From NCBI GenBank assembly GCA_035288965.1, contig DATDYQ010000048.1, positions 1 through 47,666 of the forward strand: 47,666 bases of DNA, written 5' to 3'. The notes beneath the pieces are model-generated. The model had not been told where the DNA came from. It saw only the letters and a program-made list of their open reading frames with translations, and searched no databases. Positions 3,749 through 34,733 of the stretch are shown here, piece by piece. Position 1 is the first letter of the stretch; each line of letters opens with the position of its first letter. Source of the stretch: Candidatus Nanoarchaeia archaeon. GTDB lineage: Archaea; Nanobdellota; Nanobdellia; SCGC-AAA011-G17; JAGVZF01. The translations under genes and the position numbers were made by a program.

Positions 3749-4000
3749 ATGGCAAGCATGGAAGTAACAAGTATAAGCTCTAGGGGGCAAGTTGTAATTC
3801 CTCAAAAACTTAGAGATAAGCTTAAAATAAGTGAAGGAGAAAAATTTATTATAGTTGGAGAAGATGATACCATTATATTAAAGAAAATTAAATCTCCATC
3901 ATTTGATGATTTATTAAAAAAAACAAGAGAGTTTGCTAAAAATAAAAAATTAAAAGAAGGTGATATCAGTGATGCAATTAAAAGAGTACGCAAAGTATGA
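3749..4000 (+). CDS. AbrB/SpoVT-family antitoxin
   Basis: It carries the swapped-hairpin motif SSRGQVVIPQKLRDKLKISEGEKFII. It overlaps the downstream PIN gene by 4 nt. Confidence 0.75.
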   Translation: MASMEVTSISSRGQVVIPQKLRDKLKISEGEKFIIVGEDDTIILKKIKSPSFDDLLKKTREFAKNKKLKEGDISDAIKRVRKV

Positions 4001-15262: not shown

Positions 15263-16765
15263 ATGATGAAGGATAGATTACCAACTAAGTTAAAAACTGG
15301 AACTTTTGTAAATTGGGAAGGTGTAGTTGAAGATATTGATACTCCTTTGCTTAGGGGATTAGATCCAAATCAAGATAATGAAAATTATAAAAAAGAAGTA
15401 AAAAAGACCTTTAAGAATCTAGAATTGGGTCATTTGGGTAATAATATTGTTAGATTATGGACCCGAAATATGGTAGATGTTAATCAGGAGAGATTTATTG
15501 ATAATTTAGTAGAAAGATTGTCTAATCCTTTTATTGATAGAAGTGTAATTGAACAAATTCATATGGGTGTTGAAGAATTAATTGGAAATCCGTCATTTTT
15601 TGGAAGCGTTCAAAAAGGTTTGCATAATCACCATATTGAAATAATAGATATTAAGCAAAGTTTTCTAGCTGGTAACATTGATTTTATTACATTTGAGAGA
15701 GGATCTTTGGAAAGTTATGATATATTAAGAAAAGTTTTATTAAAATCTGACAATAAACTCTTCAGAGATTTAGCAGATATATTTGGTTCATTCCATATTG
15801 TGGGAAATCCCGTTGCTGATTATTATAATATTGTTAATTCTCGTCATCTAAAAATTGTAGGTGATATAAATGGATTTAGATTATATCAAAAAAAAGATTC
15901 TCTTTATGTTGATTCATTAGATAAAAAAAATTTCACAAATGAAGAAAAATTTATTAAAATATGTATGGAGATGAGTGTTCAAAGACAGAAAGCATATAAA
16001 ATATTAGAAGGAAGTTCTGATTTCTTAGAATATATTGCTGCAATGGCTTTATGGGGGAATATAAATAAGTTTACTAAACCTACATTTAATAATGATGAAG
16101 TACTAGATATAAAAGAAGGTTATCATCCGCTTTTGATTTCAAGAAATGGAATTAATTTTAATCCGATTGTTACTCACGATACTCTTTTAACTCCTGATGT
16201 TAAGGTAGTTGCAGTTACGGGACCAAATGCAGCAGGTAAAACTACATATATCAAAGAGCTTGGATTAATATCAAGTTTAGCTCAAAGTGGAAGTTATGTC
16301 TCTGCAAAGATGGCAAATCTTCCTGTACAAAGGAAATTTTTAACTCATTTTGGATCAAAAGATGATATAATGGAAAATTTGTCTTTGTATCAAGCTGAAA
16401 TTCATGAACTAAATGTCTGCCTTTCTAAATTGGAAAAGGGTGTTTTATTTATTTGTGATGAACTCTTTAGAGGAACTGAATCTGGTGAGAATGGAGGAAC
16501 AAGATTACATAAGGCACTTGTGGAATCATTGGTATATGATTATCAGGGAAGAACTTATCTTTCTTCACATTACCATGAATCACTTGCTCAACAAAGAGAT
16601 TTACAGGGAATTAAATTTGCAAGGTTTGGTTTTAATGGAGACGGAAGGCCTTCATATAAGTTACAAAGTGGAATTGATAAGGGGGGATATGCTGTTCAAT
16701 CTGCAATTGATGCTGGATTAGATAAGAAAGTTGTGAAAAGATTGAATGGTAATGGAAAGTTATAG
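15263..16765 (+). CDS. MutS-related ATPase (MutS domain V only)
   Basis: Walker A is VTGPNAAGKTTYIKELG and Walker B is LFICDELFRGTE. The later SSHYHE matches the MutS ABC ATPase core. I see no recognisable mismatch-binding domain. Confidence 0.7.
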   Translation: MMKDRLPTKLKTGTFVNWEGVVEDIDTPLLRGLDPNQDNENYKKEVKKTFKNLELGHLGNNIVRLWTRNMVDVNQERFIDNLVERLSNPFIDRSVIEQIHMGVEELIGNPSFFGSVQKGLHNHHIEIIDIKQSFLAGNIDFITFERGSLESYDILRKVLLKSDNKLFRDLADIFGSFHIVGNPVADYYNIVNSRHLKIVGDINGFRLYQKKDSLYVDSLDKKNFTNEEKFIKICMEMSVQRQKAYKILEGSSDFLEYIAAMALWGNINKFTKPTFNNDEVLDIKEGYHPLLISRNGINFNPIVTHDTLLTPDVKVVAVTGPNAAGKTTYIKELGLISSLAQSGSYVSAKMANLPVQRKFLTHFGSKDDIMENLSLYQAEIHELNVCLSKLEKGVLFICDELFRGTESGENGGTRLHKALVESLVYDYQGRTYLSSHYHESLAQQRDLQGIKFARFGFNGDGRPSYKLQSGIDKGGYAVQSAIDAGLDKKVVKRLNGNGKL

Positions 16766-17569
16766 TTAAGGAATATTACTAGGATCCCAACATGTTCTAA
16801 AGTTTTCATTAAAATTATCTAGCTTATTCATATCTTCTTTTTCTATATTGAAGTTAAAAACGTCAAAGTTTTCTTTTATTCTAAATTCTTTAGTTGATTT
16901 TGGTATTGCTACAATTTTATGCTGTAATTCCCATTTAATTAAAATTTGAGCAGATGTTTTATTATATTTTTTAGCTAGATCAATTAATTTTTTATCATTA
17001 AGTTTATGTCCCCTAGTTAATGGAGAGTAAGCTTCTAGCTGTATTTTATTTTCATTACAAAAATTTAATAATTCTTTTTGATAAAGATAAGGAGAGAATT
17101 CAACTTGATTAATAACTGGAATAATTTTTGCTACTTTTAATAATTCTTTTAAATGTTTTATTGTGAAATTACTAACACCAATTGATTTTGCTTTTCCGCT
17201 TTTATATATTTCTTCTAGAATTTTCCAAGAATTAAGTCTTTGTTCAACAGGCCAATGAATTAAATAAAGATCAACATAATCTAAATCTAATTTTCTTAGA
17301 CTTTCATTAAATGCTTTTAATGGATCAGAATGACCTGCATTCCAAAGTTTTGTTGTTACAAATATTTCTTCTCTTGAAATTTTAGATTCTTTTATTGCAA
17401 TTCCTACAGCTTCTTCATTATTATAAACTGCTGCTGTATCAATATGTCTATAACCTGTTTGTAAAGCATTAAGAACTGCATTTTCTGTTTCTTTTCCAGG
17501 ATTTGCTTGATAAACTCCTAAACCTAATATTGGAATCTTTGTTTTATTGTTTAATGTTAATGTTTCCAT
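16766..17569 (-). CDS. aldo/keto reductase (2,5-diketo-D-gluconate reductase-like)
   Basis: AKR hallmarks are present: GYRHIDTAAVYNNEEAVG, TTKLWN, LYLIHWP, IGVSNF, AYSPL. Confidence 0.85.
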   Translation of the reverse strand: METLTLNNKTKIPILGLGVYQANPGKETENAVLNALQTGYRHIDTAAVYNNEEAVGIAIKESKISREEIFVTTKLWNAGHSDPLKAFNESLRKLDLDYVDLYLIHWPVEQRLNSWKILEEIYKSGKAKSIGVSNFTIKHLKELLKVAKIIPVINQVEFSPYLYQKELLNFCNENKIQLEAYSPLTRGHKLNDKKLIDLAKKYNKTSAQILIKWELQHKIVAIPKSTKEFRIKENFDVFNFNIEKEDMNKLDNFNENFRTCWDPSNIP

Positions 17570-17635
17570 AAGAATAATAAGAAGTTAAAGTTTAAATTGT
17601 TTGTTATTTTATTTCTTTAAAGTGGTTACATATCA

Positions 17636-17650
17636 AAAGCTTTATAAAAC
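17636..17650 (+). promoter_or_regulatory. BRE/TATA promoter (aaagctttataaaac)
   Basis: The TATA 5' edge is 31 nt upstream of ATG 17672. Confidence 0.5.
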
Positions 17651-17671
17651 GTATTATTTCTTTATTTTATC

Positions 17672-17857
17672 ATGGAAGATTATTATCAGGTGCTGTTAGA
17701 TTATGTTAAGCCAGATGATGATAATGTTAGAAAACATTCTCTCCTTTTAGATAATCCAATAACTAAAGAAACTAGAATTCCTGATTTAGAGCAGTTAGTA
17801 ATAGATAAAGAAACTAAATCTTTGTTTCCAAAAAAAAATGAAAAGAAGATTTCTTAA
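17672..17857 (+). CDS. small ORF (61 aa); possibly the frameshifted N-terminus of the downstream transglutaminase-like protein
   Basis: It sits at the canonical distance from a promoter motif. It runs through an A9 homopolymer (17830-17838) that also contains the ATG of the 805-aa ORF in another frame. Confidence 0.3.
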   Translation: MEDYYQVLLDYVKPDDDNVRKHSLLLDNPITKETRIPDLEQLVIDKETKSLFPKKNEKKIS

Positions 17858-20255
17858 TGCTTTTGAGATGTATTTAACACGTTTTCCATTTTACAGTCAA
17901 GAGTTAATACATACTGAAATGGAATTGTCTAAAAAAGAATTTATAAACTTTACAAATAAAATCGATAGGGAAGATAGTACAAGAGCGTTGCTTAACTTTT
18001 GTGGTTATGATGTGGAAGGATTGGATTCAGCTAGAGATATATTTGAATTTGAACTTAAAAAATGGCAAGATAATAAAGATTATTATGTTCCTGTAAGAGA
18101 TTTCTTTGGGCCTTTTATTCCAGAGAATATTATTAATCTAGATGATCCTTATTCAGAAGAATTAATGAATCCGTTAAGACATAGCAGAGATTTTAGTCGT
18201 TATTTAATTTCAATTGCTGCTCTGCCATTTTCTTTAATGGCTCTTTTGCCTGGAGCCTTGTTATCTAAATTTTTTAATAATAATGATACGTCAGAACCTT
18301 TAGATAAAAGAGAAACTGACTTTAATACTAGGGATAAAAGTGATAGTTCTAGCTTTTTTGATAATCTTAAATATAAACTAGCTGATTGGTTAGAATGGTT
18401 TAAAGATATGAATTTAGTTGCTACATATAATAATGATTCAGATTTATTTTTTGTAGAACATTTGATATCAGATTTTCATTCTTCTAATGATAGAATAAAA
18501 GATTTATATAGAAATGGAGTGGCACACAAGGCTTCTAGTGTTTTAACTTCGTCAACAGATATTGAAGATGATGGTTTAGAGCTGGAATTTATTAATGGAA
18601 GTGCTCCCATAGACAAATCAAATATACCACTTCCGATGTTTTACTCTTTATTTGAAACTAGAGATAATGTTGCTAAGATGTACAGATGTAATTGGAATTT
18701 AGATGATACAATAAATAGTCAACTTAGTGCAAATCTTAGACTACCTGAAAAATTCATAAATAGAATTGATGAACTAGTTAAAGGAGAAAAATCAATTGAT
18801 AAAATAAAAGATGAAGTTAAAGAGATGTTTATTTATAAAAAGCCTAAAAAATATAAGGGATTAAGCAGATTTGAATCGGCTGCAGTTTCTATGAATGGTG
18901 TTTGTCAGGATGTTAATTTTTTTCTTTGGCATATTTTAAGGAAAAAAGGAATTCCTAGCTATCTTGCTGTGGGCTTGCAGGGAAAAAATGGAGGAATTAC
19001 CAGAGATTCTGGACATGCAAAAGTTATAGCTTATGACAAAGATAAAAAAGAATGGGGGGAATATGATTCAACTCCAAGAAAAGAAGATGTTGAAATATAT
19101 GAAATGAAAAGAGGATCAAAACAACCAAGCATAGATATTGCTTTCTTGAGAAAAGGTTTGGGTTATTTAAGTTATCCTATCTATATGGGATTAAGTTTTG
19201 GAATTGGAGCTATGGTAACTGGAATAAGATTTACCAAACAAAAAACATTAGAAGGTATGATTATGGCTGAAAAGAGGATTTGTAAAAATGTCTTAGATGA
19301 TTTAGAAGAACATCTTAATAGATTTGATGATAATCTAAATAATGTTGATAAAAATCAAATGTTGTTATTTGAAGAGAAAGAAAAAATCAAAGATGAAACT
19401 ATAGAAAATTCCAGAGATATCATGAATATGTCCAATATTCCGATAATTACTAATGATTCTGAAACAAATCATGAAATTGGAAAGATAGAAAAACTGTTTA
19501 ATCCTTTTAAAATTCTTTATCAGATTGATGAACTAAAATATGTTGTTGATACTCTCCCAGAATATGTTAAAAGGTATCATTATTTTGTTATGGCTGAAAA
19601 TGTTTTTAATGATGTTTTAATAACTAAAGGAGAATTATTTCCATTTACACCAAAAAGACCTGATGAATGGAAAAATGTTATGTTAAATTTATTTAATACC
19701 TTTGCCGAAATTAAAGAGCCTCCACATCCTTTAGAAACAAGACAGCCACGAAGATATTATTATAAAGCTAAAAGGGGAATGTCTGTTAAAATAGATGATG
19801 AAATAACAACTTGGGTAAAAAAACCAAGATTCATTAAAGATTTACATTCTGATGAAAAAAATGTTTTTATAGATGATAGCCATAACAATAATCTGGAAAC
19901 TGTGAAGAACATCTATGAAGGAATGACTGATTATAATGAATGGTATATGGTGACTCATGAAAACGTGGATATGAAACCAGATGTCAAACATTACACATAT
20001 TCTCCTCAAATATTATCTTTTGATAAAATGTGGGCTGTTTCTTCTGAAGAATATTGGACATTATTTGGAAATATAATAAAAAAACATATAAAAAATAGTG
20101 AATCTGTTTTTAGATATATGTGGGAAGATTTAGTTAAAATGCATAATGAGTATAGGAAAGGTAATGGTATGTATTCTTTGACAATCAATTATAACAATGG
20201 CAATATGTTTACAGAAACAGATGAAAAATATGTTGAATTAGAAGATCCATGGTAA
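17838..20255 (+). CDS. membrane protein with transglutaminase-like Cys-His-Asp core
   Basis: The core GVCQDVNFFLWHILRKKGIPSYLAVG...SGHAKVIAY...WGEYDSTP matches the transglutaminase-like cysteine protease pattern. TM segments flank it: YLISIAALPFSLMALLPGALL and YPIYMGLSFGIGAMVTGI. Confidence 0.65.
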   Translation: MKRRFLNAFEMYLTRFPFYSQELIHTEMELSKKEFINFTNKIDREDSTRALLNFCGYDVEGLDSARDIFEFELKKWQDNKDYYVPVRDFFGPFIPENIINLDDPYSEELMNPLRHSRDFSRYLISIAALPFSLMALLPGALLSKFFNNNDTSEPLDKRETDFNTRDKSDSSSFFDNLKYKLADWLEWFKDMNLVATYNNDSDLFFVEHLISDFHSSNDRIKDLYRNGVAHKASSVLTSSTDIEDDGLELEFINGSAPIDKSNIPLPMFYSLFETRDNVAKMYRCNWNLDDTINSQLSANLRLPEKFINRIDELVKGEKSIDKIKDEVKEMFIYKKPKKYKGLSRFESAAVSMNGVCQDVNFFLWHILRKKGIPSYLAVGLQGKNGGITRDSGHAKVIAYDKDKKEWGEYDSTPRKEDVEIYEMKRGSKQPSIDIAFLRKGLGYLSYPIYMGLSFGIGAMVTGIRFTKQKTLEGMIMAEKRICKNVLDDLEEHLNRFDDNLNNVDKNQMLLFEEKEKIKDETIENSRDIMNMSNIPIITNDSETNHEIGKIEKLFNPFKILYQIDELKYVVDTLPEYVKRYHYFVMAENVFNDVLITKGELFPFTPKRPDEWKNVMLNLFNTFAEIKEPPHPLETRQPRRYYYKAKRGMSVKIDDEITTWVKKPRFIKDLHSDEKNVFIDDSHNNNLETVKNIYEGMTDYNEWYMVTHENVDMKPDVKHYTYSPQILSFDKMWAVSSEEYWTLFGNIIKKHIKNSESVFRYMWEDLVKMHNEYRKGNGMYSLTINYNNGNMFTETDEKYVELEDPW

Positions 20256-20317: not shown

Positions 20318-20326
20318 ATTTAAATA
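20318..20326 (+). promoter_or_regulatory. TATA-like box (atttaaata) upstream of the AAA-Ubl-JAB-E1 operon; SD-like aaggtggg at 20361-20368
   Basis: This is the only TATA-like element in the 20256-20377 spacer. Unlike the leaderless genes, this one would have a ~30-nt leader, with GGTGG 10 nt before the ATG. Confidence 0.4.
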
Positions 20327-20377
20327 CTGCCATTTTTCTTAAAAATTAAGATGTTAATCTAAGGTGGGTATGATGCA

Positions 20378-21895
20378 ATGAGAAACAAAGAATACGAAGA
20401 AATGCAAACAACTATTCTTTTATTAGAAGAGGAAGTAAATCGACTACGAGAGCCTCCTTACAAAGCAGGAACTGTTTTACAACTTGGAAAAAAAACAGTA
20501 CGACTTATTGTAGATGGAGGTAGTTTTATCGAAGTTGCTATGCCAAGTGATAAAGGTTTAAGTGCAGAAATTAGGAAGAAATTAAGATCAGGAGCAAGAG
20601 TTATTTTGAATGGAGCTGGAGCTATTGTTGATTATTCTGAATTTGATAAGACCATATGTGGAGAAATTACCACTGTTGATGAAATTAACTGTGATAGATT
20701 GAGAGTTAATGTAAGAGGAGAACCAAGAATGGTTTTAAACACTCTAAAAGATGTTAAGGTAGGAGATGAGGTTCAATTGGATTTATCTGGATTACTTGTT
20801 ACTGAAAGATTTGATAGAAAAAAAACACGTTATGTTTTGGAAAAAATTCCGCAAGCACCTTGGAATAATATTGGCGGATTGGAAAAAGCAATTTGTGATA
20901 TTAGGGGAGAAATTGAAGAACCTTTTTTACACAGAGATATCTTTAATAGATATGGACAAGGTCCTGCTAAGGGAATTTTGCTTTACGGACCACCCGGATG
21001 TGGAAAAACAATGATTGCAAAATCTATTGCATATAATCTTGCAAAATTAACAGGCAATGGAGCAGGACATTTTATAAGTGTGAAAGGTCCTGAGATCCTG
21101 GATAAATTTGTAGGAAATTCTGAAGCAAATATCAGAAGAATTTATGGTGCTGCACGTGATGAAGCTAAAGAAAGTAATGTACCAACAGTTGTTTTCATTG
21201 ATGAGGCAGAATCAATCATGAAAGCAAGAGGTAGTGGAATCTCGACTGATGTTTATGACTCTATTGTTCCGCAATTTCTTGCAGAAATGAGTGGTTTAAA
21301 TGGGGGGGATTACGAAGTAGTCACTGTATTGGCCACTAACAGAGAGGACATAATTGATCCTGCAATTTTAAGAGATGGTAGGGTGGATATAAAAATTCGA
21401 ATTCCTAGACCAGACAGAAAGGGAGCTGAACAAATTTTTAAAATATATTTAAAAGATAGACCTATGCGTGGGTTAATGGCTTCTACCAAAGGTCTTGTTG
21501 AAGAAATTGTTGAAAGAATCTACGATGACGAAACAGCAGCATATAATATAATTTCTCCGACTGGAATTATTGGGAGTTTTGGTTATCAAAATTTAATAAG
21601 TGGTGCAATGATAAAAGGAATTATTGATAGGGGATGTAAATCTGCAATTCGAAGAGAAATTGAAGGCGGAAAGAAAGGGTTAGAAAAAGAAGATTTGTAT
21701 CGTGCTGTTAAAGAAAAATTTGATGAGAATTCCGAATTCACGCAAGCACTTGTAAGGGACGATTGGGAAGTTGTTTTTGGTGGAGAAGGAAAGCAATTAT
21801 ACGAAATGTATCGTCATGGACATTTACATTTACAAAAGGCTGATGAACAAAGTGGGAATGATGTTAAACAAAATGAAGGGAGGCAAAGTAAATGA
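20378..21895 (+). CDS. AAA+ unfoldase with N-terminal coiled coil and two OB-like domains; resembles Mpa/ARC more than PAN; no HbYX C-terminus
   Basis: The coiled coil EEMQTTILLLEEEVNRLREPP is followed by OB-like segments. Walker A is GPPGCGKT and Walker B is VVFIDEAES, with NREDIIDPAILRDGRVD downstream. The post-AAA segment is SGAMIKGIIDRGCKSAI...DDWEVV. The protein ends ...NEGRQSK. Confidence 0.85.
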   Translation: MRNKEYEEMQTTILLLEEEVNRLREPPYKAGTVLQLGKKTVRLIVDGGSFIEVAMPSDKGLSAEIRKKLRSGARVILNGAGAIVDYSEFDKTICGEITTVDEINCDRLRVNVRGEPRMVLNTLKDVKVGDEVQLDLSGLLVTERFDRKKTRYVLEKIPQAPWNNIGGLEKAICDIRGEIEEPFLHRDIFNRYGQGPAKGILLYGPPGCGKTMIAKSIAYNLAKLTGNGAGHFISVKGPEILDKFVGNSEANIRRIYGAARDEAKESNVPTVVFIDEAESIMKARGSGISTDVYDSIVPQFLAEMSGLNGGDYEVVTVLATNREDIIDPAILRDGRVDIKIRIPRPDRKGAEQIFKIYLKDRPMRGLMASTKGLVEEIVERIYDDETAAYNIISPTGIIGSFGYQNLISGAMIKGIIDRGCKSAIRREIEGGKKGLEKEDLYRAVKEKFDENSEFTQALVRDDWEVVFGGEGKQLYEMYRHGHLHLQKADEQSGNDVKQNEGRQSK

Positions 21896-22353
21896 GAATG
21901 TTTGGAAGAAAAGAAACTGCTGCTGTTAAACCATTTGCGAAGCAAGAAGTTTTAGAGAATGAGGTTGTAAAACCGATTATTGCAACTGCAAGACCTGGCT
22001 TAACTGATGAGTCTTCTGCTTTAATGAGAAGACTTCCTTCAAATTATGCAGGAAGAACTGTAAGAGATGTACTAAGCTATATGGTTGATTTCAATGAAAG
22101 CAGATCTGCAGAAGCAACAAGTCGATATGGTAAAAAAGTTAAAGATAGTGAAGCTGCTATAATAACAAGCTTGAAGAATGAACTTGGAGCTGCAGGAAGT
22201 GTTGTTGTTATTAATGGTAAAAATGCAAAATTAACTGACAGAATAGACCAATATTTAGTTGATAGAACTAAAAATGTCAGCGGAAGAAATATTCAATATC
22301 AAGAACTTGAGATAGAAGTTTCTGCAGTTCAGCAAGGCGGTTACAGGTTTTAA
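21892..22353 (+). CDS. ubiquitin-like beta-grasp (ThiS/MoaD/SAMP-like) protein with a ~50-aa N-terminal extension, ending GG-YRF
   Basis: The C-terminal part ...GSVVVINGKNAKLTDRIDQYLVD...ELEIEVSAVQQGG|YRF follows the ThiS/MoaD-type layout. The GG is at aa 149-150 (nt 22336-22341), followed by three residues. ATGA overlap with the ATPase gene, and GGGAGG upstream. Confidence 0.6.
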   Translation: MRMFGRKETAAVKPFAKQEVLENEVVKPIIATARPGLTDESSALMRRLPSNYAGRTVRDVLSYMVDFNESRSAEATSRYGKKVKDSEAAIITSLKNELGAAGSVVVINGKNAKLTDRIDQYLVDRTKNVSGRNIQYQELEIEVSAVQQGGYRF

Positions 22354-22396
22354 TTTCTTGCAGATGTAGAAGAATCTTAATCGGTTTGAGAAAGAA

Positions 22397-23398
22397 ATGG
22401 CAGACTTAGATATACTTTTAACTGGGGAAGAGCCAGAAGAAAAATTAGAAGGAGAAAAAAATTTTGGATTAAATGAATTATATATTTCTAAATATGCTTA
22501 TGAAAAAGCCTTTAGATATGCAGAACTTGTTATGCGAGAGAGGAGCGATAGTGTTGAAATCGGGGGATTTTTAACTACACAAAAAGGTGCCAATGACAGG
22601 GTTGCAAGAGATGCATTCCTTGCTCGTGATCAAGAAGTTAGTCGGGGATTTTATAAATTAAGTGCAGAAGATGTTTTGAAGGCTAAGAAAGAGATTGAAG
22701 ATAAAGAACAAAAAATTATTGGGTGGTGGCATAGTCATGGAAGATTTGATGCTTATCATTCTGAAACTGATAGCAAAAATCAGATGGTTTTGCTTAATCA
22801 AATTTCCACTTCTAATTATATTCCCTTTCCTAAAGAAAGAGATTATGATAGTTTGCAAAGCAGAATAGAAGGTAATAAAATAATCTTTTGGGATCCTGAA
22901 GATCCTATCAAGAAATTTGAACTTGAGTTAAAAGAAGAAAATCCTGAATTGGTAGCAAAGAGATTGAAGATTTTAGAGGATAAAAAAATTGGATTTGCTT
23001 ATAGTTTTGTTGTTAATAATCATAGATGGTTGAGAAAAAGAGTTCCTTATTTCGAAATTGCAACAAGAGATTTATGTGTAGACTGTATTAATGCAAATGA
23101 TGTGAGTGTGCCTGTTGGATACAAGATTTTTGATGAAGGGGAATATAAAATTGATGATGAACAATTGATTGCAGAAATTAATGAGCGGGTTCATGTTTTT
23201 GGTGAAGGTCATAAAAATAAAAAATATCTATTGCCTTCAACTTTTGAAGAGCAACGGATGGCTGGAACGCTTTCTAAACCAGATTTCGGATCGATATCTA
23301 AGGTAAGAAAACGTAAATACTACAGAACTGATGAAGGAAGTTTTAAAGGTAAAAAGAAAGAAGAGCAAAAAGACGATTCTAAAGAGGTAGGAAGATGA
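22397..23398 (+). CDS. JAB/MPN+ (JAMM) metalloprotease with ~200-aa C-terminal extension
   Basis: An exact JAMM motif, HSHGRFDAYHSETD (H-x-H-x7-S-x2-D), lies at nt 22730-22771. The upstream Glu is in SVEIGGFL. Confidence 0.85.
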   Translation: MADLDILLTGEEPEEKLEGEKNFGLNELYISKYAYEKAFRYAELVMRERSDSVEIGGFLTTQKGANDRVARDAFLARDQEVSRGFYKLSAEDVLKAKKEIEDKEQKIIGWWHSHGRFDAYHSETDSKNQMVLLNQISTSNYIPFPKERDYDSLQSRIEGNKIIFWDPEDPIKKFELELKEENPELVAKRLKILEDKKIGFAYSFVVNNHRWLRKRVPYFEIATRDLCVDCINANDVSVPVGYKIFDEGEYKIDDEQLIAEINERVHVFGEGHKNKKYLLPSTFEEQRMAGTLSKPDFGSISKVRKRKYYRTDEGSFKGKKKEEQKDDSKEVGR

Positions 23399-24078
23399 AA
23401 TATAAAATAGGACAGAAAGTTTTTATAAAAAGAGCAAATGGGGAGTTGGACCATAAACCAAAAGGAAGTTATTATTATGGGGGTAGTTTCAGGGATCTTC
23501 CGTTAGGATCAAAGGGAACTATTAATGAAATTGTCAATGAAAATATGATTGGTCTAAGAGTGGAAAAACAAAATTATGGTTATAGGTGGTATGTGCATCC
23601 CAGTGAGTTACCTACACCTGAAGAAATAAATTTACATGAAAGAAAGGAACAGGAAAAGATTAATTCTCAGTTAAAAAGTATTCTGTTAGCTGATGAACCA
23701 ATTGTTAAAATGTCGATAACAAGACAAAAATCCTTTGATCCGAAGTTTAATGCAAGAGAAGAGTTTGTTGTTTGGATAAGGGAAGAATTTCCGGAATTAA
23801 AAAAATATTCAAAGAACAAAAGAAAATATTCTGATTTAATAAATAGAAAAAAGGAAGTTATGGAAGGAGCAAAGAAAGCTTATGAACACGCACTTAAAAC
23901 TACTGACAGTTGTGTTAGGGTTGATTTTATTGAAAGCTTTAAGGAGCTTAATAAGCGTATGGGAAATTTTGCTAATGGGCTAGATGAGTTCGTTACCTTT
24001 ATCGAGTATGTTTCTGCTAATCTGATAAACAAAAAAGATAGACATTATGGAACAACTTTAGCAAGAAGAATAAAATGA
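23395..24078 (+). CDS. unrecognised family, paralogue 1 (SH3/KOW-like N-domain plus helical module with H-x7-C)
   Basis: 227 aa. It shares LLADEP..K....SFDPKFNAREEFVVWIREEFPEL...EHALKTTDSC...IEYVSANL...RHYGT with ORFs 25490 and 26121. ATGA overlaps at both ends. Confidence 0.6.
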   Translation: MKYKIGQKVFIKRANGELDHKPKGSYYYGGSFRDLPLGSKGTINEIVNENMIGLRVEKQNYGYRWYVHPSELPTPEEINLHERKEQEKINSQLKSILLADEPIVKMSITRQKSFDPKFNAREEFVVWIREEFPELKKYSKNKRKYSDLINRKKEVMEGAKKAYEHALKTTDSCVRVDFIESFKELNKRMGNFANGLDEFVTFIEYVSANLINKKDRHYGTTLARRIK

Positions 24079-25493
24079 CGAATGACAAAAATATACGATA
24101 TGACAGACAGCAAAGAATTCAAAACTGGCAGCAAGAAAGATTAGCAAATGCAAAGATAGCAATTATTGGATCTGGACAATTAGCCCAATTTACAGCAGCT
24201 TCACTTGTCGCTCTTGGTGTAGGAAATGTAGAAATATATTGTAATGAAAAAGTTAATGGAAAGGAATTCTTAACTTTTGATAGTAATGGAGATGATAAGT
24301 CTAGCTTACTCGAAAAGAAGTTGCATGAAATGAATCCTGATGCTAATGTTAGAAGTTTTAAAATGGAAAGTGATGATAATATACTTTCTTTAGTTGATAA
24401 TCCTGATATAATTTTAGAGTTGACAAATTCATCTGAATTAAAAGAAAAAATTATGGAATATGCAAATGCACATAATGTAAAAATAATTTCTGCATCAACC
24501 GGAAAAACAGGAGGAGAATTATATTTTGTTAAACCGGGAGATGATTATTCGAGTGCAAAACTTACAAAATACGATGGAGAAAAACAGAGAACATTCACTA
24601 GCGAAATTTTTGGTGGTATGATTACAGAAGAAGTTAGAAAGATTTTGATGCCTCTTAAAGAAGGAGAAGATGCTGTTAAGAATTTGGCTTATGATGCGAC
24701 TGCTGAAAAGAGATTCAGTAAAGAAGGAGATTTTGATGCACAGCCTTTTGAAGATTTATCACAAAAAAGAATTTTAATTATCGGAGCAGGAGCTCTTGGG
24801 AATTTTGTTGCTTTGGGAGCTACGCTTGAGGGAATCGGAAAAATTGATATTTTAGATTTTGATGAAGTTGAACCTCATAATCTAAACAGACAAATTATGT
24901 TTTACGATGCTGTTGGAAAGAAAAAATCTTTAGCACTAGCAGAAAAGATCAAACAAATTAACCCTGACATCGAAGTTAAAGGATTGGTTGAAAAATTAGA
25001 TGAGAATACAACTTATTTTTTAAACAATAACCCAGACTTAATTTTGGATTGTGTTGATAACTTTGCAACTAGAGCTATAACAAATTACTTTGCTGTTCAT
25101 TATGGAATTCCGTTAGTAAGTGGTGGAACAAATTCAAATTCTGGGCAAGTTGTTGTTTATGAGCCTGGACAGAGTGCCTGTTTAGAATGTAAACTTGGTG
25201 TTGAACAAGCATTAGGGGTAGCTTTACAAGGAAGCAAGTGCACAGACGCACCTAATCCAAGTGTAATCATGACAAATGAAATTATTGGAGGAATGATGGT
25301 TGGAGAAGCTTTGAAAGTTTTAGATAAAGGATATGGAACTTCAGTTTCAAGAATTTTGAAATATGATTCAACAGCTCCTGTTAGGGGTGGTTTAATCGGA
25401 GCTAGTAATGCATGTGAATGTTCAAGGGGAGAAATTAAGGAATGGCTGCAAGGGGTTAAAGAGATGTTTTCTTTAGCTAAGGATGAAAAATGA
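24075..25493 (+). CDS. E1-like activating enzyme with tandem ThiF/MoeB-type domains (degenerate N-terminal, active C-terminal)
   Basis: Domain 1 is RYDRQ...KIAIIGSGQLAQ...GVGNVEIYCNEKV and lacks the DxD...NLNRQ motif. Domain 2 is RILIIGAGALGN...IDILDFDEVEPHNLNRQ...LDCVDNFATR...CLEC...GSKCTDAP...CEC. Confidence 0.85.
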   Translation: MTNDKNIRYDRQQRIQNWQQERLANAKIAIIGSGQLAQFTAASLVALGVGNVEIYCNEKVNGKEFLTFDSNGDDKSSLLEKKLHEMNPDANVRSFKMESDDNILSLVDNPDIILELTNSSELKEKIMEYANAHNVKIISASTGKTGGELYFVKPGDDYSSAKLTKYDGEKQRTFTSEIFGGMITEEVRKILMPLKEGEDAVKNLAYDATAEKRFSKEGDFDAQPFEDLSQKRILIIGAGALGNFVALGATLEGIGKIDILDFDEVEPHNLNRQIMFYDAVGKKKSLALAEKIKQINPDIEVKGLVEKLDENTTYFLNNNPDLILDCVDNFATRAITNYFAVHYGIPLVSGGTNSNSGQVVVYEPGQSACLECKLGVEQALGVALQGSKCTDAPNPSVIMTNEIIGGMMVGEALKVLDKGYGTSVSRILKYDSTAPVRGGLIGASNACECSRGEIKEWLQGVKEMFSLAKDEK

Positions 25494-26116
25494 CTTTTGA
25501 TATTGGAGAAAAAGTGAAGATTGTAAAAACAGAGGGATTTAATAGAGGATGTTATAGAAATGGACTTTCTTTATTCCAAATTCATCTAGGAACTAAAGGA
25601 GTGATTACAAATATACAAAATAATAAAGATGCTTTTATTTATGTTAGAATAGGGGGAGAGGATTATTCTTTTCTACCAACTGAATTAGCTTATTGTGAAG
25701 AAGGAAAAAGTAAGCATGAAAAGAAAAAATTGGAGAGTTTGCTTATTGCAGAAGAGCCTGTTGATAAAATTAAAAAAGAAAAATCCTTTGATCCGAAGTT
25801 TAATGCAAGAGAAGAGTTTGTTGTTTGGGTAAGGGAAGAATTTCCGGAATTAATGTATCAAAAGGGACATTATGAAATACCTTCTAAAAGAAGAAGAGAA
25901 GTTTATGAAGCTGCAATAGCTGCATGTCGGCATGGTATTGAAACAACTGGAGCTTGTGTGCAAAGGACATTTCAAAATAATTTTAGTAATTTAATGACGG
26001 ATGGTTGCTCAGATCTTGAAGTAAGAATATATAGCATAGTATCTTTAATAGAATGTGTTTCTGCTAATCTGGGAAACGAAAATAGACATTATGGAACAAT
26101 TTTAGCAAGAAAATAA
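25490..26116 (+). CDS. unrecognised family, paralogue 2 (SH3/KOW-like N-domain plus helical module with H-x7-C)
   Basis: 208 aa. Motifs: LLIAEEPVDKIKKEKSFDPKFNAREEFVVWVREEFPEL...RHGIETTGAC...IECVSANLGNENRHYGT. ATGA overlap with the E1 gene. Confidence 0.6.
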   Translation: MTFDIGEKVKIVKTEGFNRGCYRNGLSLFQIHLGTKGVITNIQNNKDAFIYVRIGGEDYSFLPTELAYCEEGKSKHEKKKLESLLIAEEPVDKIKKEKSFDPKFNAREEFVVWVREEFPELMYQKGHYEIPSKRRREVYEAAIAACRHGIETTGACVQRTFQNNFSNLMTDGCSDLEVRIYSIVSLIECVSANLGNENRHYGTILARK

Positions 26117-26120
26117 TAAA

Positions 26121-26858
26121 ATGACTAATGATAAACTAGATGAATTATTAAACGGGAAAGAGCCAGAAGAAAGATTAGAAGTGAATGTTAATCGGGAATT
26201 CAAGCCTAAAATTAATGTGAGAGAAGAATTTGTATTGTGGATCCGTGAACAGTTTCCGGAACTTGGAGAATATATAAAAAAAGGAGGCATATATAAAAGT
26301 TTAGAAACTCGTGAGGAGGAGATTTATCAAGCTGCTCTGGGAGCAGTAAATCATGGTTTAACCTCTACTGAAGATTGTGCAAGCACACGTTTACATTCTG
26401 GATGGGTTGAATTTGAAAAAGGATTTGGGGTAAAGGGAAATCCTAGAAGAAGAGCAAAGAGTTTAGGAAGTTTTGTTAAGGCATTAGAAGACCTCTCAAT
26501 TAGCTTAGGTGGAGACAAACATTATACGAGGGCCGGAAAATTTTTAAATGGTAAACCTTATAGTGATTATTTGTATAGAAATCTGCGAGCTTTTGTTTAT
26601 ATGGTGGGAGAGGAAAATGGCAAGGATACAAAATACCTAGTTTTTGATGTAAAACAAAAATTTGAAGGCAATAATATCCCTGTTTTGATAGGTGAACTTC
26701 GTGGATTATCAAAATGGGATTTTGAAAGTTTAGGGAGAATTGCCTCTAAATTTCAGGGAACTGAGATAGATTTTATTGAAAAGGTTGATAAACTTGTTCC
26801 ACAAAAAGGATCATATGACTATTCACATGGATATTATGGCAGTGTTAAGTATAAGTGA
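26121..26858 (+). CDS. unrecognised family, paralogue 3 (helical module first, then a distinct ~110-aa C-terminal domain)
   Basis: 245 aa. Motifs: LLNGKEPEERLEVNVNREFKPKINVREEFVLWIREQFPEL...NHGLTSTEDC...LEDLSISLGGDKHYT. It starts MTNDK, as the E1 does. Confidence 0.6.
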   Translation: MTNDKLDELLNGKEPEERLEVNVNREFKPKINVREEFVLWIREQFPELGEYIKKGGIYKSLETREEEIYQAALGAVNHGLTSTEDCASTRLHSGWVEFEKGFGVKGNPRRRAKSLGSFVKALEDLSISLGGDKHYTRAGKFLNGKPYSDYLYRNLRAFVYMVGEENGKDTKYLVFDVKQKFEGNNIPVLIGELRGLSKWDFESLGRIASKFQGTEIDFIEKVDKLVPQKGSYDYSHGYYGSVKYK

Positions 26859-27381: not shown

Positions 27382-27455
27382 GGGCCGGTAGCTCAGCTTG
27401 GTAGAGCACCTGACTTTTAATCAGGTGGTCGTGGGTTCAAATCCCATCCGGCTCA
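27382..27455 (+). tRNA. tRNA-Lys (anticodon TTT)
   Basis: Acceptor GGGCCGG/CCGGCTC, D arm GCTC-AGCTTGGTA-GAGC, anticodon stem CCTGA/TCAGG with loop CTTTTAA, T arm GTGGG-TTCAAAT-CCCAT. Confidence 0.9.
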
Positions 27456-27463
27456 TACACAAA

Positions 27464-27709
27464 ATGAAGAAAGAACTAAACATAGTAGGTCATGGCTTGG
27501 TCCCGAAGCATTTTAAATTAAGTGAAGAAGAGAAAAAAGAACTTCTGGAAAAATATAATATTGGATTAACACAATTGCCAAAAATCTATGATAATGATCC
27601 TATGATCAAAATAATGGGAGATGTTAAAATAGGTGATATTGTTAAAATAGAGAGAGATAGTCCAACAGCTGGAAAAGGTATTTTTTATAGAGTGGTGGTG
27701 CATGGTTAA
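27464..27709 (+). CDS. rpoH: RNA polymerase subunit H (Rpb5 homologue)
   Basis: Motifs: HGLVPKHFKLSEEEKKELLEKYNI...QLPKI...DP...GDIVKIERDSPTAG...YRVVV. The ORF-track start at 27398 lies inside tRNA-Lys. I use ATG 27464. Confidence 0.85.
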   Translation: MKKELNIVGHGLVPKHFKLSEEEKKELLEKYNIGLTQLPKIYDNDPMIKIMGDVKIGDIVKIERDSPTAGKGIFYRVVVHG

Positions 27710-29192: not shown

Positions 29193-29193
29193 A

Positions 29194-33586: not shown

Positions 33587-33587
33587 A

Positions 33588-34733
33588 ATGGCAAAAAGTG
33601 TTTATGATGAGTATGAAGAAATGTTACCTGGGAAATTATTAGAAGATGTAAAAAATGAATGCCAAGAAGAAAGATTGAGTGCAGCAGATGCTAAAAAAGT
33701 TTTGGAAAGTGTAAAAGATGCTTATGAAAAAGCAAAAATAAGTCCAGGGGAGGCTATAGGAATTATAACGGCTGAAAGTTTTGGAGAACCTGGAACACAG
33801 ATGATATTAAGAACATTCCACTTTGCAGGTGTTTCTGAATTAAATGTCACTCTTGGATTACCAAGATTAATTGAAATTTTTGATGCTAGGAAGGAACCTA
33901 GTACACCTAGAATGGATATTTATTTGAAAGCAAAATACAACAAAGATCCTAAACTTGCCAGGAAAATAGCTGCAAGAATAAAAGAAACCAAATTAAAAGA
34001 AATTGTAACTGAATTTAGTATTAACTTGGGAAATGCTGCAGTTGAAGCTAAAATTGATCAGAAAAAGATAAAAGATCTAGGTTTAGAATTAAGCGAAGTT
34101 GTAAAAATATTAAATATAAACACAAAATTGTTTAATGCTAAAGAAGAAAGGGGTAATTTAATATTAAGTCCAAAGGGAAGTCAGAATAATTTGAGCGAAG
34201 TCTTTAGAATAAAAGAGAAAGCTAAGGACATAGTAATTGGTGGGATAAAAGGAATAGGTCAAGTTCTGCCTGTAAAAAAAGATAATGAATTTATGATAAT
34301 ATGTTCAGGAAGTAATTTAAAAGAAGTTTTACAATTAGAAGAAATTGATGAAAAAAATACAACAAGTAATAATATAATAGAAATTTTAAATGTTTTAGGC
34401 ATTGAAGCTGCAAGACAAGCTATAATAAATGAATCTTTAAGAGTTATTGAAGATCAAGGATTGGATATTGATATAAGACATATAATGTTTTTAGCTGATG
34501 TCATGACAATTACTGGAGAGGTTAATGGAGTTAGCAGGGGAGGAATAACAGGAGAAAAAGAGAGTGTATTGGCAAGAGCAAGTTTTGAAACTCCTATAAA
34601 ACATATCATTAATGCTTCTTTAATAGGTGAAAGAGATAATTTAAATAGTGTAATAGAAAATGTTTTATTAAATCAGCCTGTGCCATTGGGAACCGGATTA
34701 CCTGGGTTAATAGCAAAGATGAAGAAAAAATGA
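33588..34733 (+). CDS. rpoA2: RNA polymerase subunit A''
   Basis: Rpb1 C-terminal region (trigger loop): [28 protein letters not shown]. It follows rpoA' in the operon. Confidence 0.9.

What the first reader, a model, noticed from the sequence alone, without database searches (positions are those of the whole stretch)
20378..21895. AAA+ ATPase looks Mpa/ARC-like rather than PAN-like and lacks a proteasome-docking tail
The architecture is a coiled coil (aa ~5-25), two successive OB-like segments (aa ~28-90 and ~95-145), one AAA module, and a ~130-aa C-terminal domain. From memory of actinobacterial Mpa, two segments resemble that subfamily: RGSGISTDVYDSIVPQFLAEMSGL, and SGAMIKGIIDRGCKSAI followed by DDWEVV. 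Archaeal PAN has a single OB domain. The C-terminus (NEGRQSK) has no hydrophobic-Tyr-X or GQYL-type motif. The protein may therefore not dock on a 20S core particle, and may act as a stand-alone unfoldase or with a different partner.
Basis: partly seen in the sequence, partly recalled or inferred. Interest (0 to 1): 0.7.

Follow-up and report, generated by a model that had tools for sequence, protein, structure and literature searches.

The report
Mpa-type unfoldase in archaeal ubiquitin-like operon
A tiny-genome (DPANN) archaeon carries a protein-unfolding motor built like the actinobacterial proteasome ATPase Mpa, without Mpa's proteasome-docking tail, and its gene opens an operon for a ubiquitin-like tag, the tag's activating enzyme and a tag-removing protease, a combination I found described nowhere.

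Summary
ORF 20378-21895 encodes a 505-aa AAA+ protein. Its best profile match is the Mpa/ARC model TIGR03689 (378 bits, full length; PAN models 174-184 bits). Its best solved-structure matches, by sequence and by predicted fold, are M. tuberculosis Mpa. The AF2 model (pLDDT 90.6) shows a short coiled-coil helix, two tandem OB barrels, one AAA module and the Mpa-specific beta-grasp with its inserted hairpin. No GQYL or HbYX tail exists in this protein or across about 70 DPANN relatives; some have no tail at all.

The gene is translationally coupled to a 7-gene operon (20378-26858). This encodes a beta-grasp ubiquitin-like protein with an invariant ...EVSAVQQGG plus a removable tail, a JAMM/JAB peptidase, a tandem-ThiF E1 and three unknown paralogs. 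AAA sits directly upstream of the Ubl in 20 of 21 loci. Sister ATPases sit next to Pup ligases and a Pup ending in GGQ.

Whether it feeds a 20S proteasome remains open. I rate it a new variant of a known kind, interest about 0.72.

The parts
20318..20325 (+). TATA-box-like TTTAAATA about 53 nt upstream of the ATG. A GGTGG Shine-Dalgarno-like element lies at 20364-20368.
   Evidence: Read directly from the sequence. Promoter function is inferred, not tested.
20378..21895 (+). Mpa/ARC-like AAA+ unfoldase, 505 aa.
20384..20446 (+). N-terminal coiled-coil helix (aa 3-23), followed by the near-invariant PP at aa 26-27.
   Evidence: AF2 secondary structure; conserved columns of alignment A1.
20462..20812 (+). 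Tandem OB domains: OB1 at aa 29-86 and OB2 at aa 97-145.
   Evidence: AF2 gives five strands for each domain. Foldseek alignment to Mpa covers ~490 of 505 residues. PAN profiles align only from aa ~98.
20855..21412 (+). AAA alpha/beta module. Walker A GPPGCGKT 20987-21010, pore loop KFVG 21104-21115, Walker B 21188-21211, Arg fingers 21371-21388.
   Evidence: PF00004 E 3.6e-32; invariant columns; coordinates.
21413..21871 (+). AAA lid with Mpa-type beta-grasp: hairpin aa 389-401 (21542-21580), helix 460-479, strand 484-487, helix 488-498.
   Evidence: AF2. The topology matches the description of Mpa in PMC9599533.
21872..21892 (+). Low-confidence C-terminal tail NEGRQSK with no HbYX or GQYL.
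   Evidence: pLDDT ~51 in the last block; family tails.
21892..22353 (+). Ubiquitin-like protein precursor, 153 aa. It has a disordered N-terminus (aa 1-23), a beta-grasp core, an invariant ...EIEVSAVQQGG (GG at 22336-22341) and a removable tail YRF. Its start overlaps the AAA stop (ATGA).
22397..23398 (+). JAMM/JAB metallopeptidase, 333 aa. Glu54 lies in EIGG, and the motif HSHGRFDAYHSETD is at aa 112-125 (22730-22771).
   Evidence: PF14464 E 2.7e-8; NCBIfam desampylase E 9e-8; motif.
23395..24078 (+). X1, 227 aa. An SH3-like N-domain (aa 1-85) is shared with the long XL proteins of other loci, followed by a helical 'X domain' (FNAREEFVVWIREEFPEL...) of unknown function.
   Evidence: No Pfam or PADLOC match.
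24075..25493 (+). E1-like activating enzyme, 472 aa, made of two tandem ThiF domains. The N-terminal half is degenerate (GSGQLA, no NLNRQ). The C-terminal half is intact: GAGALG at 237, NLNRQ at 269, DNFATR at 328, CLEC at 369, CEC at 447.
   Evidence: PF00899 E 1e-69 in 2 stretches; NCBIfam ThiF/MoeB/UbaA models; motifs; internal repeat.
25490..26116 (+). X2, 208 aa, a paralog of X1 (41% identity).
26121..26858 (+). X3, 245 aa. It has the X domain plus an unrelated C-terminal half, and is the last gene of the operon.

Best explanation
The protein is a hexameric, Mpa-family AAA+ unfoldase. It serves as the dedicated reader and motor of a ubiquitin-type tagging cassette encoded in the same operon. 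The proposed cycle has four steps.
1. The JAMM peptidase trims the variable tail of the Ubl precursor and exposes ...QQGG.
2. The tandem-ThiF E1 adenylates that glycine. The Ubl is then attached to target proteins. In most relatives this probably needs the His/Cys-containing XL protein. In this window the transfer would be E2-independent, or would use the X proteins.
3. The ATPase captures the tagged protein through its coiled-coil/OB face. It probably starts threading on the tag's ~25-residue disordered N-terminus, as Mpa does with Pup, and unfolds the protein through the pore.
4. The JAMM peptidase recycles the tag.

The family has no conserved C-terminus, so I commit to the view that it does not open a 20S gate by C-terminal insertion. 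It would act as a stand-alone unfoldase or extractor, or hand substrates over by some other contact.

Shown here: the fold, the intact motor motifs, the absence of a tail motif, the operon and its conservation, the Ubl diglycine, and the JAMM and E1 motifs. Inferred: conjugation to targets, recognition of the tag by the ATPase, and the fate of the unfolded protein.
For: The motor is Mpa-like and looks intact.
- Profile and structure evidence.
- Walker A/B, the pore loop, sensor-1 and the Arg fingers are invariant or nearly so across 89 sequences.

The genes form an operon.
- Four gene junctions overlap by 4 nt (AAA/Ubl, JAB/X1, X1/E1, E1/X2). The other two gaps are 43 nt and 4 nt.
- AAA lies directly upstream of the Ubl in 20 of 21 loci. 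These span AAA sequences down to ~50% identity and two gene orders.
- Ubl and AAA homologs share contigs in at least 13 further cases.

The tag behaves like a processed ubiquitin-like protein.
- It has an invariant EVSAVQQGG followed by 2-14 variable residues. The pattern is kept across the 95 clusters found among 1.84 billion representatives, and a few members end exactly at GG.
- The AF2 core gives mostly beta-grasp matches, and the N-terminus (aa 1-23) is disordered.

The enzymes carry their catalytic motifs: the JAMM motif and the E1 ATP and Zn motifs.

Sister ATPases P0077 and P0089 are each followed by two Pup_ligase genes, and the P0089 locus (L104) also encodes a 61-aa protein ending GGQ. 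The family is therefore habitually wired to a small-protein tag.

Tail: 1 of 48 is HbYX-like, none has GQYL, and six have no tail.
Against: - No physical link between the ATPase and the Ubl has been shown. Adjacency is the only evidence.
- The Ubl's fold matches are statistically weak (best E 0.08). No Pfam beta-grasp family reaches significance.
- No E2 or ligase was identified in this window.
- The coiled coil is only ~20 residues, against my recollection of ~50 in Mpa. Pup-like helix capture may therefore not apply.
- The host phylum has a core proteasome subunit, and the protein retains the 20S-contacting hairpin of Mpa. Delivery to a 20S is not excluded.
- One locus (L100) has Ubl-XL-JAB without an adjacent ATPase.
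Confidence: 0.5

Rival explanations
1. This is a full ubiquitin-proteasome analogue. The ATPase docks on the archaeon's own 20S core by non-canonical contacts, such as the beta-grasp hairpin or a lysine-rich tail. It then feeds Ubl-tagged proteins in for degradation while the JAMM peptidase removes the tag, as Rpn11 does on the 26S proteasome.
For: - A proteasome subunit is among the 101 single-copy core genes in 208 complete Nanobdellota genomes.
- The protein keeps the Mpa beta-grasp hairpin, which in Mpa contacts the 20S alpha ring and is needed for degradation.
- The closest structural relatives after Mpa are the Rpt subunits.
Against: - There is no HbYX or GQYL motif, and no conserved C-terminus of any kind. 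Tails vary in length and six family members have none.
- No psmA, psmB or PAN lies in the window or in 10 kb beyond either end.
- No 20S gene appears in any of the flanking regions examined.
Confidence: 0.25
2. This is a conflict or defence module. The cassette tags invading proteins (from viruses or host cells), as the bacterial Bil system and CBASS Cap2/Cap3 do, and the ATPase extracts or unfolds the tagged proteins.
For: - The flanking genes differ in every locus, so the cassette looks portable.
- Accessory genes vary: XL versus X1-3, with extra copies in some loci.
- The E1 gives partial matches to the PADLOC E1-E2 (Cap2-like) models and to the NCBIfam 6A-MBL cap2_3 model.
Against: - The PADLOC matches cover only the generic E1 domain. 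No other cassette protein matches a defence model beyond generic AAA and JAB hits.
- No relative of the Ubl was found in viral contigs.
- In the window the cassette sits between housekeeping genes and directly upstream of the rpoH-rpoB-rpoA operon.
Confidence: 0.12
3. This is a sulfur-carrier pathway. The Ubl and E1 act like ThiS/MoaD with ThiF/MoeB, or like Urm1/SAMP in tRNA thiolation, and the ATPase is only a neighbour.
For: - The best NCBIfam matches of the E1 are the ThiF and MoeB models.
- Faint ThiS and Urm1 hits appear in 3 of 39 Ubl members.
Against: - All E1 scores fall below the equivalog cut-offs.
- There is no ThiG, ThiH, MoaE, NcsA or rhodanese gene in any cassette.
- The Ubl precursor tails and the ever-present JAMM peptidase point to protein conjugation and deconjugation.
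- AAA-Ubl adjacency holds in 20 of 21 loci with translational coupling.
- The Ubl family is small and separate from ThiS/MoaD.
Confidence: 0.05

Closest known systems
Mpa/ARC, the actinobacterial proteasome-associated ATPase (TIGR03689; PDB 5kwa, 5kzf, 7px9)
   Same: Same domain order: coiled coil, two OB domains, one AAA module, and a beta-grasp with its hairpin inserted in the lid. Identity is 38-40% over 93% of the length. It is the best profile, sequence and fold match.
   Different: - No GQYL tail.
- The coiled coil is much shorter (~20 aa).
- The score is below the equivalog cut-off (378 against 504.75).
- The host is archaeal.
- The neighbours are a beta-grasp Ubl, an E1 and a JAMM peptidase, not Pup, PafA, Dop and PrcAB.
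- It falls in a clade sister to all sampled bacterial Mpa, not inside them.
PAN and the eukaryotic Rpt1-6 subunits
   Same: Coiled coil, OB and AAA layout; a classic-clade AAA module; and the conserved proline after the coiled coil.
   Different: - PAN has one OB domain (established knowledge). PAN profiles align only from OB2 onward and score 174-184 bits against a cut-off of 500.
- PAN has no beta-grasp.
- PAN carries a C-terminal HbYX motif, which this protein lacks.
Pup-PafA-Dop-Mpa tagging system, including the UBact-type systems of Nitrospirota and other bacteria
   Same: An Mpa-type unfoldase is encoded next to a small protein tag with a diglycine-containing C-terminus and a disordered part. 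Sister loci L103 and L104 are of this type.
   Different: The tag here is a folded beta-grasp protein activated by an E1. Pup is instead a disordered peptide ligated by a glutamine-synthetase-like enzyme. Tag removal here is by a JAMM peptidase, not by Dop.
SAMP-UbaA-HvJAMM1 system of Haloferax, and Urm1 systems of Sulfolobales
   Same: An archaeal beta-grasp tag ending in GG, a MoeB/ThiF-type E1, and a JAMM desampylase-like peptidase. The window has no recognisable E2.
   Different: - The SAMP genes are scattered, and the readers are PAN, Cdc48 and the 20S.
- This E1 is a tandem ThiF.
- This Ubl is a distinct family of only 95 clusters, with a long disordered N-terminus and a precursor tail.
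- The cassette brings its own Mpa-type ATPase.
Operon-encoded Ub/E1/E2/RING/Rpn11 system of Caldiarchaeum (PMC5654768), and bacterial Bil/Bub and CBASS Cap2/Cap3
   Same: The Ubl, the E1 and a JAB-type peptidase are encoded in one operon.
   Different: - None of those, as far as I know, includes an AAA+ unfoldase.
- Those systems have a recognisable E2. Here only a His...Cys domain (XL) occurs in relatives, and it was not confirmed as an E2.
- No RING protein is present.
Rpn11-Rpt coupling in the eukaryotic 26S proteasome
   Same: A JAMM deubiquitinase is encoded and used together with a coiled-coil/OB/AAA translocase. This is a functional analogy only.
   Different: No lid scaffold is present. 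A physical association of the two proteins is purely inferred.

Membership tests
Mpa/ARC proteasome ATPase (TIGR03689) | N-terminal coiled coil followed by two tandem OB domains | tested here: met
   AF2 gives helix 3-23, OB1 29-86 and OB2 97-145 at pLDDT ~90. Foldseek aligns ~490 columns to Mpa with TM up to 0.82. The coiled coil is shorter than in Mpa.
Mpa/ARC proteasome ATPase (TIGR03689) | Single AAA module with intact Walker A/B, pore loop and Arg fingers | tested here: met
   PF00004 E 3.6e-32; invariant columns; motif positions.
Mpa/ARC proteasome ATPase (TIGR03689) | C-terminal beta-grasp whose hairpin is inserted in the helical subdomain ('unique to Mpa homologues', PMC9599533) | tested here: met
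   Predicted hairpin 389-401, helix 460-479 and strand 484-487, matching the description read. This rests on a predicted structure only.
Mpa/ARC proteasome ATPase (TIGR03689) | C-terminal GQYL 20S-activation motif | tested here: not met
   The protein ends NEGRQSK. None of 48 DPANN relatives has GQYL, whereas every actinobacterial hit does.
Mpa/ARC proteasome ATPase (TIGR03689) | Score above NCBI's equivalog cut-off | tested here: not met
   378.1 bits against a cut-off of 504.75.
Mpa/ARC proteasome ATPase (TIGR03689) | Genomic linkage to Pup, PafA/Dop and 20S genes | tested here: not met
   The neighbours are a Ubl, a JAB peptidase and an E1. Only the sister-group loci L103 and L104 carry Pup_ligase genes, and L104 alone carries a Pup-like protein.
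Mpa/ARC proteasome ATPase (TIGR03689) | Phylogenetic placement with Mpa rather than other AAA proteins | tested here: inconclusive
   NJ tree on 285 AAA columns with a Cdc48 D1/D2 outgroup. Mpa-like sequences form a clade at 100%. The archaeal or metagenomic clade (DPANN family, second group and P0089) has 99% support and is sister to bacterial Mpa (100%). No PAN or Rpt sequences were available for the tree. The method was a distance method only.
PAN / Rpt proteasome-activating nucleotidase | Single OB domain, HbYX tail, profile score above cut-off | tested here: not met
   The protein has two OB domains and no HbYX. The PAN models score 184, 174, 141 and 135 bits against cut-offs of 500-750.
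Cdc48/VAT | N-domain plus two AAA modules (D1, D2) | tested here: not met
   The protein has one AAA module. The CDC48 model scores 195 bits against a cut-off of 802, aligned to D2 only.
Ubiquitin-like conjugation system of E1/JAMM type (SAMP-like) | Beta-grasp modifier with a C-terminal diglycine | tested here: met
   GG is nearly invariant (at least 90% of 39 sequences) and is kept across most of the 95 clusters. Fold matches to the AF2 core are mostly beta-grasp proteins, but with weak statistics (E at least 0.08). No Pfam Ubl family is significant.
Ubiquitin-like conjugation system of E1/JAMM type (SAMP-like) | E1 with an adenylation domain (GxGxxG, NLNRQ, Asp) and Zn-binding CxxC...CxC | tested here: met
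   PF00899 E 1e-69; motifs at aa 237, 269, 328, 369 and 447.
Ubiquitin-like conjugation system of E1/JAMM type (SAMP-like) | JAMM motif E...HxHx7Sx2D | tested here: met
   Glu54 and HSHGRFDAYHSETD at aa 112-125; PF14464.
Ubiquitin-like conjugation system of E1/JAMM type (SAMP-like) | Covalent (isopeptide) attachment of the modifier to target proteins | not testable with these tools
   This needs biochemistry or proteomics.
E2 (UBC-like) conjugating enzyme, candidate: XL proteins of related loci | UBC fold with an HPN-like motif upstream of the catalytic Cys | tested here: inconclusive
   The XL C-terminal domain has an invariant His and Cys 14 residues apart (HPF...ICIG). There is no Pfam hit, and a profile search of the PDB gave nothing relevant. 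The domain is absent from this window.

The most novel reading that the evidence does not exclude
Mpa-type unfoldases are not an actinobacterial adjunct of pupylation. They are an older, modular 'tag reader' found in both domains of life. In sister lineages the same reader is wired to Pup. This would be a natural intermediate between the Pup-proteasome and ubiquitin-proteasome systems. It would also be a minimal archaeal tag, unfold and de-tag machine that may work without a 20S.
Probability: 0.35. Interest if true: 0.85.

Novelty: new variant of a known kind. Interest (0 to 1): 0.72.

Why it matters
Two unrelated ways of marking proteins for an unfoldase are known. Ubiquitin-type tags use an E1 and are read by Rpt, PAN or Cdc48. 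Pup uses PafA and is read by Mpa. Here the Mpa-type reader is found encoded with the ubiquitin-type chemistry, in archaea with very small genomes, while close sister ATPases keep Pup.

If the functional link is real, three things follow.
- Readers and tags were exchanged as modules during evolution.
- It provides a compact operon (five core genes, seven in this window) in which tagging, unfolding and tag removal could be reconstituted together.
- It raises the question of whether targeted unfolding without a docked protease is a regulatory end in itself in organisms that depend on hosts.

It also corrects the annotation of this family. Public records call these proteins 'AAA family ATPase' or 'proteasome-associated ATPase', with no mention of the linked tagging genes.

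Tried and rejected
- **GG motif in the ATPase tail as a pseudo-Ubl or JAMM site.** I considered this because tails such as ...KSQGGKTK recur. I rejected it as a general feature. Only 18 of 48 tails have GG, 11 have EVK, and six proteins have no tail. The window's subclade lacks GG, and pLDDT there is ~50.
- **Upstream 805-aa transglutaminase-core protein (17838-20255) as part of the system.** No homolog lies near the cassette in five other loci.
- **XL proteins as E2 enzymes.** This rests on a motif resemblance only. Pfam at E up to 10 and a PDB profile search gave nothing.
- **X1-X3 as relatives of the XL catalytic domain.** Only the N-terminal SH3-like ~85 aa is shared. The window has no XL His/Cys domain in any frame.
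- **Known defence systems.** PADLOC gave only generic AAA, JAB and E1 matches.
- **Viral carriage.** No relative of the Ubl was found in viral contigs.
- **psmA/psmB/PAN near the window.** Pfam on 40 of the window's ORFs, including nearly all those of at least 100 aa, found none. Walking 10 kb beyond each end found none. One look-up found no record. The whole genome could not be reached.
- **Genome-contig scan with the single protein.** It returned mostly bacterial Mpa and only two Nanoarchaeota loci.
- **The third protein search (XL).** It gave only six hits because of the word prefilter.
- **Literature.** Six full-text searches found no paper linking DPANN archaea to Mpa or pupylation, and none describing an Mpa-like ATPase in an E1/JAB/Ubl operon. 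The library is incomplete, so this is absence from that library only.
Full report
**What is there**

The ORF at 20378-21895 (+) is real and encodes 505 aa. The window is archaeal. It carries a split rpoB, rpoA1/A2, a NusA-like KH protein, Mre11/Rad50 and ribosomal proteins S12 and S7. GC content is about 30%. The closest named homologs of the protein come from Nanoarchaeota, Pacearchaeota and Woesearchaeota, which are DPANN archaea.

**Checking the observation**

Against NCBIfam, the best model is by far TIGR03689 'pup_AAA / proteasome ATPase'. It scores 378 bits, aligning aa 8-477 to model positions 26-508 of 512. The two general PAN models reach only 184 and 174 bits and start aligning near aa 98. 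CDC48 reaches 195 bits on its D2 domain only. The TIGR03689 score is below the equivalog cut-off of 504.75.

Against PDB sequences, M. tuberculosis Mpa gives a single stretch of 273 bits over aa 125-474 (5kwa: aa 68-474). Cdc48/p97 entries rank higher only because two domains of about 140-155 bits each are summed.

An AlphaFold2 model built on an 89-sequence alignment is confident, with pLDDT 90.6 and pTM 0.81. It shows the following elements:
- a helix at aa 3-23;
- a five-stranded OB domain at 29-86, with the usual helix between strands 3 and 4;
- a second five-stranded OB domain at 97-145;
- one AAA module;
- a lid carrying a beta-hairpin at 389-401, a helix at 460-479 and a strand at 484-487.

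That last arrangement matches the beta-grasp described as unique to Mpa homologues. It consists of one helix plus three strands, with the hairpin inserted in the helical subdomain (PMC9599533).

In a Foldseek search of the PDB, the first 30 hits are all Mpa chains, with E 1e-38 to 1e-33 and TM up to 0.82. Rpt subunits follow at E 1e-24.

The motor motifs are intact and conserved: Walker A, the KFVG pore loop, Walker B, sensor-1 Asn and two Arg fingers.

The protein ends in NEGRQSK, and the last block has low pLDDT. Across 48 DPANN relatives anchored at the conserved DDWE motif, the results were:
- one has an HbYX-like end, and none has GQYL;
- tail length after the anchor varies from 30 to 62 residues;
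- six proteins stop right after the last helix.

All actinobacterial hits end in GQYL.

The ATPase stop codon overlaps the start of the next gene (ATGA at 21892-21895). Six further genes follow, with 4-nt overlaps or short gaps, up to 26858.

Gene 2 (153 aa) has no Pfam family. Its 39 homologs share the ending ...LEIEVSAVQQGG, with the GG nearly invariant, followed by 2-14 variable residues that usually begin with Tyr or Phe. This is the signature of a ubiquitin-like precursor.
- Its AF2 model has pLDDT 77. It shows a disordered N-terminus (aa 1-23) and a beta-beta-alpha-alpha-beta-beta-beta-beta core.
- PDB fold matches to that core are statistically weak, with best E 0.08. Most are nonetheless beta-grasp proteins: a SUMO-like domain, Atg8/GABARAP, ISG15, Raf and PI3K RBDs, and Mth1743.
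- A profile search of 1.84 billion representative proteins finds only 95 clusters, and most listed full-length members keep the GG. A few end exactly at GG.

Gene 3 is a JAMM/JAB peptidase with a complete E...HxHx7Sx2D motif.

Gene 5 is an E1 built from two ThiF domains in one chain. The first domain is degenerate. The second is intact, with GxGxxG, NLNRQ, DNxxxR and CxxC...CxC.

Genes 4, 6 and 7 (X1-X3) are paralogs with no known family.

**Conservation of the cassette**

I collected 20 further loci: five through the ATPase and 15 through the Ubl.
- The ATPase lies directly upstream of the Ubl in every locus with enough upstream DNA except L100. That makes 20 of 21 when the window is counted.
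- The common gene order is AAA-Ubl-XL-JAB-E1, where XL is a 450-616-aa protein.
- The window's subclade (window, L087, L088, L101) has the order AAA-Ubl-JAB-X1-E1.
- XL and X1/X2 share only an SH3-like N-terminal domain.
- The XL C-terminal domain has an invariant His and Cys 14 residues apart. By eye this recalls the E2 HPN...Cys motif. Neither Pfam nor a profile search of the PDB confirms it.
- The XL C-terminal domain is absent from the window.
- The flanking genes differ in every locus.
- The upstream transglutaminase-like gene of the window is not conserved elsewhere.

**Evolutionary placement**

I built a neighbour-joining tree on 285 columns of the AAA module, using Cdc48 D1 and D2 as the outgroup. 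It gives these clades:
- all Mpa-like sequences together (100/100);
- the 71 DPANN sequences (100);
- the 22 bacterial Mpa sequences, from Actinomycetota, Nitrospirales, Rokubacteria, Myxococcota and one Patescibacteria MAG (100);
- the DPANN clade plus a second small group and P0089 (99), sister to the bacterial clade.

The archaeal proteins are therefore not a recent acquisition from Actinobacteria. There are two caveats: this is a distance method, and no PAN or Rpt sequences were available for the tree.

Within the second group, P0076 (a Nanoarchaeota MAG) again heads an AAA-Ubl-XL-JAB-E1 cassette. P0077 and P0089 are instead followed by two Pup_ligase (PafA/Dop) genes. In L104 there is also a 61-aa protein ending ...QQSGGQ, a typical Pup. 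One family of unfoldases is therefore encoded next to either of two unrelated tagging chemistries. L104 also has a small protein carrying the X-domain motif of the window's X1-X3. The X domain may therefore go with the ATPase rather than with the tag.

**How it most likely works**

The shown facts are an intact Mpa-type translocase, translational coupling to a GG-tagged beta-grasp protein, and an E1 and a JAMM peptidase in the same conserved cassette. From these I infer a cycle of tagging, unfolding and tag removal:
1. The JAMM peptidase trims the precursor.
2. The E1 activates the glycine.
3. The tag is transferred to targets. The ligase is unknown; XL is the candidate in other loci.
4. The ATPase engages tagged proteins. 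The tag's own disordered N-terminus is an obvious place to start threading, as with Pup in Mpa (PMC8755798, abstract listed).
5. The JAMM peptidase recycles the tag.

The family has no conserved C-terminus. Canonical gate-opening by insertion into 20S alpha-ring pockets is therefore unlikely, and I favour stand-alone unfolding or extraction (confidence about 0.5).

The main rival (0.25) is non-canonical docking on the host 20S. A proteasome subunit is a single-copy core gene in Nanobdellota, and the 20S-contacting hairpin of Mpa is retained. I could not reach the rest of this genome. The window and 10 kb beyond each end hold no psmA, psmB or PAN.

A defence role (0.12) and a sulfur-carrier role (0.05) are less likely, for the reasons given under the rival explanations.

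**Comparison with what is known, and novelty**

The protein works like Mpa and shares all of Mpa's structural hallmarks. It fails three membership criteria: the GQYL tail, the equivalog score, and linkage to Pup and the 20S. I therefore file it as a new archaeal variant of the Mpa/ARC kind, not as Mpa.

The cassette resembles the SAMP/UbaA/JAMM system in its chemistry, and the Caldiarchaeum and bacterial Bil/Bub operons in being operon-encoded. To my knowledge none of those includes an unfoldase. Six full-text searches found no description of this combination, and none of Mpa-like or Pup-like genes in DPANN archaea. The library is incomplete, so novelty is provisional.

**Verdict**

- Observation: confirmed.
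- Interpretation: partly supported, and substantially extended.
- Novelty: new variant of a known kind.
- Interest: 0.72.

Noticed in passing
L104:423-5935 and L103:7169-11931 (metagenome contigs Ga0209211_10015925 and Ga0209542_10014596): ATPases of the sister group are followed by two Pup_ligase (PafA/Dop) genes. L104 3888-4073 encodes a 61-aa protein ending ...YQQSGGQ, a typical Pup. These contigs come from the same JGI samples that also yielded DPANN-type cassette loci (L089; L090, L092, L095, L097). Pupylation may therefore exist outside the known bacterial phyla. The organisms were not identified.
   Followed up: partly
window 23395-24078, 25490-26116, 26121-26858; L104:5612-5935: Three paralogous proteins (X1-X3) share a ~100-aa helical domain (FNAREEFVVWIREEFPEL...HYG) with no Pfam, NCBIfam or PADLOC match. 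A small protein with the same motif sits in the Pup-type cassette L104. The domain may therefore be an accessory of the ATPase rather than of the tag.
   Followed up: partly
L001:10498-12219, L003:11902-13752, L005:12116-13789 and 17410-19086, L007:9980-11590, L102:10992-12341: The XL proteins combine an SH3-like N-domain with a C-terminal domain that has an invariant His and Cys 14 residues apart (HPFLHN...ICIG) and a conserved GEVIAKRLRR. This is a possible novel E2-like enzyme. It was not detectable by Pfam or by a PDB profile search.
   Followed up: partly
window 24075-25493: The E1 is a single chain of two ThiF domains. The first has lost the nucleotide-binding and Arg-finger motifs. It is a pseudo-heterodimer, reminiscent of the inactive and active adenylation domains of eukaryotic E1s.
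   Followed up: partly
C-termini of P0007-P0068 (homologs of window 21872-21892): The tails of the DPANN ATPases fall into recurrent flavours, ...(S/T)xGGK(T)K, ...TKL(K/R)EVK(Q) and ...ER(R/G)xx, and are lysine-rich. Lys is the last residue in 25 of 48. Their meaning is unknown.
   Followed up: partly
L005 (ENA ERZ21878447 ctg45461l, 1.36 Mb): A full cassette with two XL copies lies on a 1.36-Mb contig among many short co-directional ORFs of unknown function, a protein kinase, a radical SAM gene and a gene with a sigma-54 DNA-binding domain. That is odd for an archaeon. The identity of the organism or element was not determined.
   Followed up: no
window 17838-20255: An 805-aa protein with a transglutaminase-core domain (aa 318-410) lies directly upstream of the operon. 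It is not conserved next to the cassette in the other loci.
   Followed up: yes
window 27382-27709: tRNA-Lys (27382-27455) is immediately followed by what looks like rpoH. The listed TTG ORF at 27398 overlaps the tRNA, and the real start is probably the internal MKKELNIV. Next come the split rpoB (27702-30996) and rpoA1/A2 (30998-34733), so the cassette sits just upstream of the core transcription operon.
   Followed up: no
window 39883-41787 and 45958-47184: The ThyX-domain protein is 634 aa, but the Thy1 match covers only aa 115-299, so it may carry a large insertion or extension. A free-standing LAGLIDADG endonuclease gene lies near the end of the window.
   Followed up: no
window 35436-36540 (-) and 3997-4401 (+): These are toxin-antitoxin-like pairs. 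One is a HEPN protein with a nucleotidyltransferase (MNT). The other is a PIN_3 (VapC-like) gene, preceded in the related contig L106 by a MazE-like gene.
   Followed up: no
window 15263-16765: A 500-aa protein contains only MutS domain V (the ATPase domain) at aa 318-493. It lacks the mismatch-binding domains.
   Followed up: no
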